Shown piece after piece: positions 4,577 through 5,064 of a stretch of DNA of 64,000 nucleotides. The notes under the pieces are model-generated. The model was given only the letters and a program-made list of their open reading frames with translations, searched no databases and was not told where the DNA came from. How positions within the stretch are numbered: the first letter of the stretch is position 1; each line of letters starts with the position of its first letter. A program made the translations under genes and the position numbers. The stretch comes from Escherichia coli (GTDB taxonomy: Bacteria > Pseudomonadota > Gammaproteobacteria > Enterobacterales > Enterobacteriaceae), in the NCBI RefSeq assembly GCF_013122565.1, contig NZ_CP053258.1; one strand, written 5' to 3'.

Positions 4577-5064
4577 TAGGCACTTTACTTTTACAGCCTG
4601 TTTTCTGCTCAAATTATAAGCTTCAGCAAAGTAATGCAAATGCATTATTAGCAGCAGAAAGCGCCAGAACCAACGAAAAAAGAGAACATGTTTCCCATTT
4701 TGCGAGGCGCTTTCCAAATCGTCCGCTCAGTCCCCTCGCACGCCAGCGCTAAAACCACTATTTTGCAAATCTGTGACCTCCTTCACTCTCCATAAAGGCG
4801 GTGATCTAATGGTGTGGATCCACTTTCTGCTTTCGCTTGTCTGCCGTAAGCACTCGCTATTTCGTCATCTCTCCTTTTCACTTTTTCAGTTTGTCATTTT
4901 CATTTGCGGTCAACCGAAAGATCTGGAGTCGATTTTTCCAGGTTTCAACGCCGTTGTCGGGTTCACAAATTCACTTCTTTTCTTCTGATGTAATGCATTC
5001 AAAAGAAAATGAAAGTTTCAAAATGCAAGAATGCAACGAAATACTTTTTCAGGGAGCGATTAAC

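What the first reader, a model, noticed from the sequence alone, without database searches (positions are those of the whole stretch)
4860..5064. AgaR-like operator motifs upstream of the island DeoR regulator
The upstream region of the DeoR paralogue contains repeated GAAA-rich motifs (CATTTTCATTTGC, GAAAATGAAAGTTTCAAAATGCAAGAATGCAACGAAATAC) resembling the CTTTC/GAAAG repeats in the agaR-kbaZ intergenic region at 2700-2912 (GAAATGAAACGAAAGTTTTACGAAAG). The two regulators are paralogues 1.3 kb apart, so cross-regulation between the aga regulon and the new island is possible.
Basis: partly seen in the sequence, partly recalled or inferred. Interest (0 to 1): 0.45.

Follow-up and report, generated by a model that had tools for sequence, protein, structure and literature searches.

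The report
AgaR-type operators of an island repressor
The stretch upstream of the island's DeoR-type regulator is a conserved, probably self-repressed promoter that carries binding boxes of the same type as the neighbouring N-acetylgalactosamine repressor AgaR; this is an ordinary kind of sugar-operon control, newly seen on a rare E. coli island.

Summary
A matrix built from seven E. coli AgaR boxes, scanned over all 64 kb, gives its two best non-training hits in the island's two promoters. These are 5000-5015 (CTTTCATTTTCTTTTG on the minus strand, 19.2 bits) and 12279-12294 (CTTTCGGTTGGTTTCT, 16.0 bits). The first box is the most conserved 16-nt stretch of the regulator's upstream region across Escherichia, Citrobacter, Hafnia, Edaphovirga and Photorhabdus. 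It sits just after a conserved extended -10 (TG-A-TGTAAT, 4986-4994), at the predicted transcription start. CATTTTCATTTGC is a degenerate copy of a box that is strong in Photorhabdus.

The island regulator is 43% identical to E. coli AgaR. It is 74-78% identical to the regulator that heads genuine aga clusters in Hafnia and Photorhabdus, and it kept that promoter almost intact. Both lineages share the recognition helix VS(T/S)VTIRNDL and the same box code.

The most likely reading is an autorepressed AgaR-family promoter plus a regulated sugar operon. Cross-binding by resident AgaR is plausible but untested. This is a new member of a known kind, of modest interest.

The parts
5000..5015 (-). 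Main AgaR-type operator: CTTTCATTTTCTTTTG, two (C/T)TTT(C/T) units 10 bp apart. It covers about -1 to +15 of the regulator's predicted promoter.
   Evidence: Best non-training matrix hit in the window, 19.2 bits. p values. Most conserved 16-mer of the upstream region. Conserved as AAAAGAAAA(C/T)GAAAG or CGAAAGAGAGNGAAAG in 22 orthologous promoters.
4986..4994 (+). Extended -10 element TG-A-TGTAAT of the regulator's promoter. The predicted start is near 5001.
   Evidence: TGnTGTAAT is conserved in nearly all 22 aligned promoters; the two C. amalonaticus sequences read TGATTTAAT. Mean identity 0.93. The simple -35/-10 scan finds no canonical pair here. The start site is inferred, not mapped.
4952..4967 (+). 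Proximal CRP-type position centred at -41.5. Only the right half, TCACA (4963-4967), is kept in the window.
   Evidence: Hafnia, Edaphovirga and most Photorhabdus have TGTAA-N6-TCACA at the aligned position (TGCAA in four Photorhabdus). CACAA.TTC is invariant.
4915..4920 (-). Upstream box B4, CGAAAG (CTTTCG on the minus strand), at about -86 to -81.
   Evidence: The CGAAA core is conserved in most lineages (TGAAA in H. paralvei, P. heterorhabditis and P. cinerea); the final G is C in most Photorhabdus and T in RIT691. Mean identity 0.84.
4897..4907 (+).
   Evidence: Aligns with CTTTCGTTTTGTTTCT (up to 25 bits) in Photorhabdus and with CTTTCATTGTATTTTA in Hafnia. Conservation in the window's lineage is only average.
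4875..4888 (+). Two TTTTCA units, CTTTTCACTTTTTCA, found only in the Escherichia, Citrobacter and RIT691 promoters.
   Evidence: Conserved in alignment A1 but not in Hafnia or Photorhabdus.
4830..4839 (+). Distal box B1, CTTTCGCTTG, at about -171 to -162.
   Evidence: GCTTTCGTTT is nearly invariant in all 22 promoters. Most conserved 10-mer of the region, rank 1 of 356.
4772..4787 (+). Distal CRP-type site TGTGA-CCTCCT-TCACT, centred about 221 bp upstream of the predicted start.
   Evidence: TGTGA and TCA are invariant in all aligned promoters. Its role is not established.
5027..5042 (-). It is probably not a site in its own right.
   Evidence: 11.6 bits, at background level. The region is poorly conserved. 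Citrobacter has an 11.3-bit match at the equivalent distance.
5065..5835 (+). Island regulator gene: a DeoR/AgaR-family repressor of 256 aa.
   Evidence: NCBIfam AgaR NF040755, 363 bits against a cut-off of 260. The E. coli AgaR model PRK09802 gives 270 bits against 351. 43% identical to AgaR and 74-78% to the aga-cluster regulators of Hafnia, Edaphovirga and Photorhabdus.
12279..12294 (+). AgaR-type box O3 of the island operon promoter, CTTTCGGTTGGTTTCT, at about -77 to -92 of the operon's predicted start.
   Evidence: Second-best non-training hit in the window, 16.0 bits; 26 of 2000 simulations reach it. Conserved as CTTTCGGT(A/T)GGTTTCT in E. coli R32 and most Citrobacter operon promoters (9-11 bit variants in C. 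amalonaticus L024 and RIT691), whether the operon encodes PTS or ABC transport.
12302..12313 (-). Box O2, CTTTTCGTTCTG, inverted relative to O3, at about -100 to -111.
   Evidence: TTTTCGTTTTGATAAAAGAGAAACC.ACCGAAAG is conserved between the window, E. coli R32 and Citrobacter.
12209..12237 (-). Predicted sigma-70 promoter of the island operon, TTGACA-17-GATTAT.
   Evidence: 10 of 12 matches in the promoter scan. TTGAC(A/T) and GATTAT are conserved in Citrobacter.
12418..12433 (+). CRP-type site TGTGA-GCGTTA-TCACT, upstream of the island operon.
   Evidence: The GTGAT..G.TC.CA pattern is conserved in Citrobacter and RIT691.
2699..2893 (.). Reference set: E. coli-type AgaR boxes of the agaR-kbaZ intergenic region, at 2699-2714(+), 2739-2754(-), 2783-2798(-) and 2878-2893(-).
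   Evidence: Conserved in Escherichia, Citrobacter and RIT691. The 2874-2893 box corresponds to the published AgaR site from PkbaZ, CTTTCGTTTCATTTTCGTTT (PMC8667592 Table S3).

Best explanation
Positions 4770-5064 are the promoter and operator region of an AgaR-family (DeoR-type) repressor gene. Transcription is predicted to start near 5001, from a conserved extended -10 (4986-4994). An AgaR-type operator (5000-5015, two TTTC units one helical turn apart) lies on the start site. Repressor bound there would block initiation, so the gene would repress itself. Weaker conserved boxes upstream (4830-4839, 4897-4907, 4915-4920) probably add cooperative binding or looping, as in other DeoR-family systems. 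The same regulator most likely also controls the island operon on the other strand, which encodes PTS IIB-IIC, a GH4 glycosidase, a ChbG-like deacetylase, a Gfo/Idh/MocA oxidoreductase and a ROK kinase. It would act there through the conserved boxes at 12279-12294 and 12302-12313, and would be released by a sugar phosphate. The box code cannot be told apart from that of the neighbouring AgaR, so AgaR may bind these sites too.

Shown here: the sequence match, its conservation, and the orthology of the promoter with genuine aga-cluster promoters. Inferred: the start site, which protein binds, repression, looping and the inducer.
For: - **Matrix scan.** The two best non-training hits of an E. coli AgaR matrix in the 64 kb window are 5000-5015 (19.2 bits) and 12279-12294 (16.0 bits). 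Per-site p is 1.75e-7 and 1.5e-6. Markov simulations reach these scores 6/2000 and 26/2000 times.
- **Conservation.** Across 11 lineages, 5000-5015 is the most conserved 16-mer and 4829-4838 the most conserved 10-mer of the upstream region (alignments).
- **Orthologous promoters.** In Hafnia the 78% identical regulator is the first gene of an agaZ-agaS-agaW-agaE-agaF-kbaY cluster. Photorhabdus has a matching ORF layout. Their promoters align with this one along its whole length and hold 18-25 bit AgaR-matrix sites.
- **DNA-binding domain.** The recognition helix VS(T/S)VTIRNDL and most helix-turn-helix residues are the same in both lineages.
- **Regulator family.** The regulator passes the NCBIfam AgaR model.
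- **Published precedent.** A published AgaR site from PkbaZ represses when placed at +1, and also gives net repression at -61 (PMC8667592).
- **Operon promoter.** The operon-promoter box is kept in both the PTS-type and ABC-type versions of the island.
Against: - No transcription start or binding data exist. The start site rests on a conserved extended -10 and on a CRP-type site at -41.5 that is complete only in Hafnia, Edaphovirga and Photorhabdus.
- At the operon promoter the good boxes lie at -77 to -111 and none overlaps the predicted core promoter in the window, so the mode of repression there is unclear.
- The upstream boxes are weak in the window itself; only 5000-5015 scores high.
- I chose the matrix training sites by eye from conserved aga boxes.
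- The CRP-type sites about 220 bp upstream are unexplained.
Confidence: 0.75

Rival explanations
1. Shared operators with real cross-regulation. Both AgaR and the island regulator occupy the boxes in the island promoters, and possibly those in the aga promoters. The island operon would then be expressed only when both repressors are released, or would be co-induced with the aga regulon. This extends the best explanation rather than excluding it.
For: The E. coli AgaR matrix picks out the island sites. The recognition helix is the same. The regulators of the Hafnia and Photorhabdus aga clusters use boxes identical to the E. coli consensus, for example CTTTCGTTTTGTTTCT. The island box CTTTCATTTTCTTTTG closely resembles the E. 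coli agaS-promoter box CTTTCGATTTCTTTTC. In Escherichia, Citrobacter and RIT691 the island regulator gene always lies directly downstream of agaR.
Against: There are no binding data. The proteins are only 43% identical overall and differ in the N-terminal arm and the wing, which could tune specificity or spacing preference. Paralogous repressors that coexist in one cell are often insulated from each other.
Confidence: 0.4
2. Insulated paralogue. The boxes are bound only by the island regulator. The resemblance to AgaR operators reflects common descent, and there is no functional cross-talk.
For: The main island box has C at position 11 and T at position 15. Five of the seven aga training boxes have R at position 11 and C at position 15. 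The island regulator fails the E. coli-specific AgaR model PRK09802.
Against: One genuine agaS-promoter box has the same C11 and T15. No position separates the two site sets consistently.
Confidence: 0.35
3. Chance resemblance. The GAAA/TTTC runs are just AT-rich intergenic sequence of an acquired island, perhaps bound by general nucleoid proteins such as H-NS, and are not specific operators.
For: The region is T-rich (33% T).
Against: The 5000-5015 and 4830-4839 boxes are the most conserved stretches across five genera while their flanks diverge. The matrix scores are far above the window's background, where the next hit is 11.8 bits. The same box recurs in the non-homologous operon promoter.
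Confidence: 0.05

Closest known systems
AgaR operators of the E. coli aga regulon (agaR, kbaZ/agaZ and agaS promoters; Ray and Larson 2004, cited from memory and through PMC4694137 and PMC8667592)
   Same: The box code is the same: CTTTC(R)TTTY(R)TTTY, with TTTC units about 10 bp apart. There are several boxes per promoter. The main box lies just downstream of the -10 of the regulator's own gene with GAAAG on the coding strand; compare 2873-2893 before agaR with 5000-5015 here. CRP-type sites lie nearby. Both regulators are DeoR-family.
   Different: The cognate regulator is a different lineage: 43% identical, and it fails the E. coli AgaR model PRK09802. The downstream operon is not an aga operon. 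Binding has not been shown.
agaR promoters of the aga clusters of Hafnia, Edaphovirga and Photorhabdus
   Same: The promoter is orthologous along its whole length: distal CRP-type site, CTTTCG box, central box, CGAAA box, TCACAA(T/A)TTC, TGnTGTAAT and GAAAG-N5-GAAAG at the start. The regulator is 74-78% identical.
   Different: In those genera the regulator heads the aga genes as one transcription unit. Here it stands alone and faces a convergent chb-like PTS operon. The central box and the left half of the -41.5 CRP-type site have decayed in the window.
Multi-operator repression by DeoR-family proteins (DeoR at the deo operon, GlpR at the glp operons; textbook knowledge)
   Same: Oligomeric sugar-phosphate-responsive repressors bind several operators spread over 100-600 bp. 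One operator lies on the core promoter, and CRP often participates.
   Different: DeoR and GlpR operators are palindromes. AgaR-type boxes are direct TTTC repeats. Looping here is only inferred from the spacing of the boxes.
E. coli chb (chitobiose) operon control by NagC, ChbR and CRP
   Same: The regulated genes resemble chbB, chbC, chbF and chbG, and a CRP-type site lies upstream.
   Different: The island has no ChbR or NagC gene and no chbA. The regulator is DeoR/AgaR-type, and the conserved boxes are AgaR-type.

Membership tests
AgaR operator (E. coli aga regulon type) | Sequence match to the AgaR box, CTTTC(R)TTTY(R)TTTY, with two TTTC units about 10 bp apart | tested here: met
   5000-5015 scores 19.2 bits and 12279-12294 scores 16.0 bits. 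They rank 5 and 6 in the window, directly behind the four training sites. p values are. The island box matches the published PkbaZ site at 12 of its first 15 positions.
AgaR operator (E. coli aga regulon type) | Position on or next to the core promoter of a gene linked to an AgaR-family regulator | tested here: inconclusive
   The box starts 5 nt after a conserved extended -10, the same arrangement as upstream of agaR. The start site is predicted, not mapped. At the operon promoter the boxes lie at -77 to -111.
AgaR operator (E. coli aga regulon type) | Several boxes per regulatory region | tested here: met
   Six YTTTCR/YGAAAR units lie in 4820-5020 against 0.77 expected (P = 1.5e-4). This is the highest density in the window.
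AgaR operator (E. coli aga regulon type) | Conservation in orthologous promoters (phylogenetic footprint) | tested here: met
   Rank 1 of 350 for 5000-5015 and rank 1 of 356 for 4829-4838.
AgaR operator (E. coli aga regulon type) | Physical binding by AgaR, or by the paralogue, and derepression by the inducer | not testable with these tools
   This needs gel-shift, footprinting, ChIP or reporter assays.
AgaR / DeoR-family repressor (the protein encoded at 5065-5835) | Full-length match above the curated cut-off of the NCBIfam AgaR model NF040755 | tested here: met
   363 bits against a cut-off of 260.
AgaR / DeoR-family repressor (the protein encoded at 5065-5835) | Orthology with E. coli K-12 AgaR (model PRK09802) | tested here: not met
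   270 bits against a cut-off of 351, and 43% identity. It is a separate lineage, closest to the Hafnia and Photorhabdus aga-cluster regulators.
AgaR / DeoR-family repressor (the protein encoded at 5065-5835) | Genomic linkage to GalNAc/GalN catabolic (aga) genes as its target | tested here: inconclusive
   Linked in Hafnia. Here the gene lies 1.3 kb from agaR, but its apparent target is a chb-like PTS, GH4, deacetylase, oxidoreductase and kinase operon.
CRP binding site | TGTGA-N6-TCACA at a suitable distance from a promoter | tested here: inconclusive
   4772-4787 and 12418-12433 match 9 of 10 core positions and are conserved, but they lie about 220 bp from the predicted starts. The -41.5 position keeps only one half-site in the window.

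The most novel reading that the evidence does not exclude
A complete regulatory cassette (repressor gene, CRP sites, extended -10 promoter and operators) from a second AgaR lineage sits directly beside the resident agaR in some Escherichia and Citrobacter. The ancestor of this lineage controlled a Hafnia/Photorhabdus-type aga cluster. The cassette now drives interchangeable sugar-uptake modules: an ABC transporter in Citrobacter, and a chb-like PTS with glycosidase and deacetylase in Escherichia. Both modules surround a constant oxidoreductase-kinase core. The two repressors read the same operator code, so the cell would run a shared-operator, two-repressor circuit. That circuit would tie use of an unknown amino-sugar glycoside, possibly one containing GalNAc, to the state of the aga pathway.
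Probability: 0.3. Interest if true: 0.45.

Novelty: new member of a known kind. Interest (0 to 1): 0.3.

Why it matters
If correct, the work assigns a regulator, operators and a promoter to a rare accessory sugar-utilisation island of E. coli, present in 3 of 5426 complete genomes at 92% identity. It suggests that the island belongs functionally to the GalNAc/aga regulon. It also offers a natural case of two coexisting paralogous repressors with apparently the same operator code, which could be used to study cross-talk against insulation after a regulator is acquired. The kind of control itself, a DeoR-type repressor with TTTC-repeat operators and CRP, is well known.

Tried and rejected
- **AgaR consensus in the literature.** I looked for Ray and Larson 2004 and Leyn et al. 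2012; the two look-ups I tried by id (both meant for Leyn et al. 2012) found no held paper. One search was swamped by 'agar' plates. The only published site I could retrieve is the PkbaZ site in PMC8667592. The 24-nt consensus I remember is used only as a lead.
- **Common origin of the two island promoters.** The alignment shows only local similarity, so I did not claim a duplication.
- **Canonical -35/-10 pair for the regulator.** The scan finds none. The promoter model rests on the conserved extended -10.
- **A CRP-proximal promoter next to the distal CRP-type sites.** I inspected the sequence by eye and found no convincing, conserved -10 at class I or class II distances.
- **Gfo/Idh/MocA protein as a GH109 alpha-N-acetylgalactosaminidase.** This would have tied the island to GalNAc. 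The PDB sequence search gives only 2e-4 to 2ixa, and the best hits are YjhC/NanOx-type oxidoreductases. The idea is not supported.
- **Prior description of the island.** The literature search found nothing relevant.
- **Technical limit.** Loci from genome contigs were not visible to the Python sandbox. I passed sequences in through DNA alignment instead.

Full report
**Setting.** The window is E. coli-like; positions 1-4650 are about 99% identical to E. coli chromosomes.
- kbaZ is at 1384-2664(-) and agaR at 2913-3722(+).
- A yhaV/prlF pair follows at about 3777-4600(-).
- An insert follows from about 4651 to just before garD (12494-14065(-)).
- The insert carries a DeoR-type regulator gene at 5065-5835(+).
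- On the other strand it carries an operon for PTS IIB (11742-12059), PTS IIC (10306-11667), a GH4 phospho-glycosidase (8876-10228), a ChbG-like deacetylase (8105-8863), a Gfo/Idh/MocA oxidoreductase (6810-8093) and a ROK kinase (5880-6791).
- Only 3 of 5426 complete E. coli genomes hold this insert, at 92% identity. In those genomes it is annotated 'transcriptional repressor AgaR' plus chb-like genes.

**Observation.** The two regulators are 43% identical.

**Matrix test.** I built a 16-nt matrix from seven conserved E. coli-type AgaR boxes. Four come from the agaR-kbaZ intergenic region of the window and three from the agaS promoter of E. coli R32. One training box corresponds to the published AgaR site taken from PkbaZ (PMC8667592 Table S3).
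- Scanned over both strands of the whole window, ranks 1-4 are the training sites.
- Rank 5 is 5000-5015(-), CTTTCATTTTCTTTTG, 19.2 bits.
- Rank 6 is 12279-12294(+), CTTTCGGTTGGTTTCT, 16.0 bits, in the promoter region of the island operon.
- The next unrelated hit scores 11.8 bits.
- Exact per-site probabilities are 1.75e-7 and 1.5e-6 with a uniform background. With a T-rich background they are still 4e-6 and 3e-5.
- First-order Markov simulations of the two intergenic regions reach the observed best score in 6 and 26 of 2000 trials.
- The density of YTTTCR/YGAAAR units peaks at 4801-5075, the highest in the window.

**Comparative evidence.** A scan of one genome per species found 26 loci with a relative of the regulator.
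- In Citrobacter, Escherichia sp. MOD1-EC7003 and strain RIT691 (87-92% identity), the gene lies directly downstream of agaR wherever the flank is available.
- In Hafnia, Edaphovirga and Photorhabdus the relative is 74-78% identical. In Hafnia it is the first gene of a genuine aga cluster, with agaZ, agaS, agaW, agaE, agaF and kbaY all above or near their family cut-offs. Photorhabdus has a matching ORF layout.
- The 430 nt upstream of all these regulator genes align along their whole length.

The conserved blocks, in window coordinates, are:
- TGTGA-N6-TCAC (4772-4787);
- GCTTTCGTTT (4829-4839);
- a central TTTC box (4897-4907), strong in Photorhabdus as CTTTCGTTTTGTTTCT but degenerate here;
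- CGAAA(G) (4915-4920);
- TCACAA(A/T)TTC (4963-4972);
- TGnTGTAAT (4986-4994);
- GAAAG-N5-GAAAG (5000-5015).

With one sequence per lineage, 5000-5015 is the most conserved 16-mer and 4829-4838 the most conserved 10-mer of the region. By contrast, 5017-5044 is below the regional average. The E. coli AgaR matrix gives 18-25 bit hits in the Photorhabdus and Hafnia promoters. The second lineage therefore uses the same box code. The helix-turn-helix, including the recognition helix VS(T/S)VTIRNDL, is nearly the same in both lineages.

**Promoter model (inferred).**
- TG-A-TGTAAT is an extended -10, which puts the start near 5001.
- In Hafnia, Edaphovirga and most Photorhabdus, TGTAA-N6-TCACA is then centred at -41.5, the class II CRP position. 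This supports the assignment. In the window only the TCACA half remains.
- The main box covers about -1 to +15.
- An AgaR site placed at +1 of a synthetic promoter represses, and at -61 it also gives net repression (PMC8667592).
- The E. coli agaR gene has the equivalent arrangement: a conserved GTTAATAG followed by AAAACGAAATGAAACGAAAG.
- I therefore read 4770-5064 as an autorepressed promoter with one strong operator on the start site and auxiliary boxes at about -84, -99 and -167. These may support cooperative binding or looping, as in other DeoR-family systems (textbook knowledge; not tested here).

**Operon promoter.**
- A good sigma-70 promoter, TTGACA-17-GATTAT, lies at 12237-12209(-).
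- Upstream of it, TTTTCGTTCTGATAAAAAAGAAACCAACCGAAAG (12313-12279 on the minus strand) and a CRP-type site (12418-12433) are conserved with the Citrobacter loci.
- In Citrobacter, however, the same promoter drives an ABC transporter followed by the same oxidoreductase and kinase.
- Regulator, both promoters and the oxidoreductase-kinase pair are thus the constant part of the island, and the uptake and hydrolysis genes are exchangeable.
- The boxes lie at -77 to -111, and in the window none overlaps the core promoter. How repression works there is open.

**Cross-regulation.** No position separates the box sets of the two lineages. The island's main box has C11 and T15, but so does a genuine agaS-promoter box. 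Lineage-two regulators in genomes without a second paralogue use the E. coli consensus itself. Cross-binding is therefore plausible; I put it at about 0.4. Only binding and genetic tests can decide.

**Comparison with what is known.** This works like, and by sequence criteria belongs with, AgaR operators of the aga regulon. The regulator is an AgaR-family protein (NF040755, above cut-off) but not the E. coli AgaR orthologue (PRK09802, below cut-off). I found no description of this island or its control, so I class it as a new member of a known kind.

**Verdict.** The interpretation as AgaR-like operators is supported. Cross-regulation is untested. Interest is modest.

Noticed in passing
window 4119-4121 (within yhaV, 3777-4241, minus strand): The yhaV toxin gene has an in-frame TAG at codon 41 (ENY*RK), so the toxin of the yhaV/prlF pair appears to be inactivated in this strain. 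prlF looks intact.
   Followed up: partly
window 12097-12121: The leader of the PTS IIB gene holds overlapping perfect palindromes, ATGCCAT-AA-ATGGCAT and TGGCAT-ATA-ATGCCA. They are conserved in E. coli R32 and absent from the ABC-type islands. They could be an operator for another factor, an RNA hairpin, or part of a second promoter (ATGCCA-16-TATATT).
   Followed up: no
window 5880-12059 compared with L002 8809-15275: The island comes in two versions that share the regulator, both promoters, the Gfo/Idh/MocA oxidoreductase and the ROK kinase. Escherichia has PTS IIB-IIC, a GH4 glycosidase and a ChbG-like deacetylase. Citrobacter, RIT691 and Escherichia sp. MOD1-EC7003 have an ABC transporter instead. 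The exchange point lies just downstream of the shared promoter, after ...ATTCAATGG(C/T)TCCTG.
   Followed up: partly
window 4772-4787 and 12418-12433: Both island promoters have a TGTGA-N6-TCACT site at almost the same, unusually long distance from the predicted start (about -221.5 and -223.5). This is too far for classical CRP activation, and its role is unknown.
   Followed up: no
window 4651-12493; L001: The island is rare: 3 of 5426 complete E. coli genomes, and those copies are only 92% identical to the window although the flanks are about 99% identical. In those three genomes the yhaV/prlF pair is missing and the island starts 66 nt after agaR. This suggests separate acquisition or recombination.
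   Followed up: partly
window 5880-12059: The PTS operon encodes IIB and IIC but no IIA component, so it would need a IIA from elsewhere, for example ChbA.
   Followed up: no
window 6810-8093: The closest solved relatives of the Gfo/Idh/MocA protein are YjhC (6o15) and the Gfo/Idh/MocA oxidoreductases 6z3b/6z3c, which from memory are the 2,7-anhydro-sialic-acid oxidoreductases, not GH109 glycosidases. The substrate of the island remains unknown.
   Followed up: partly
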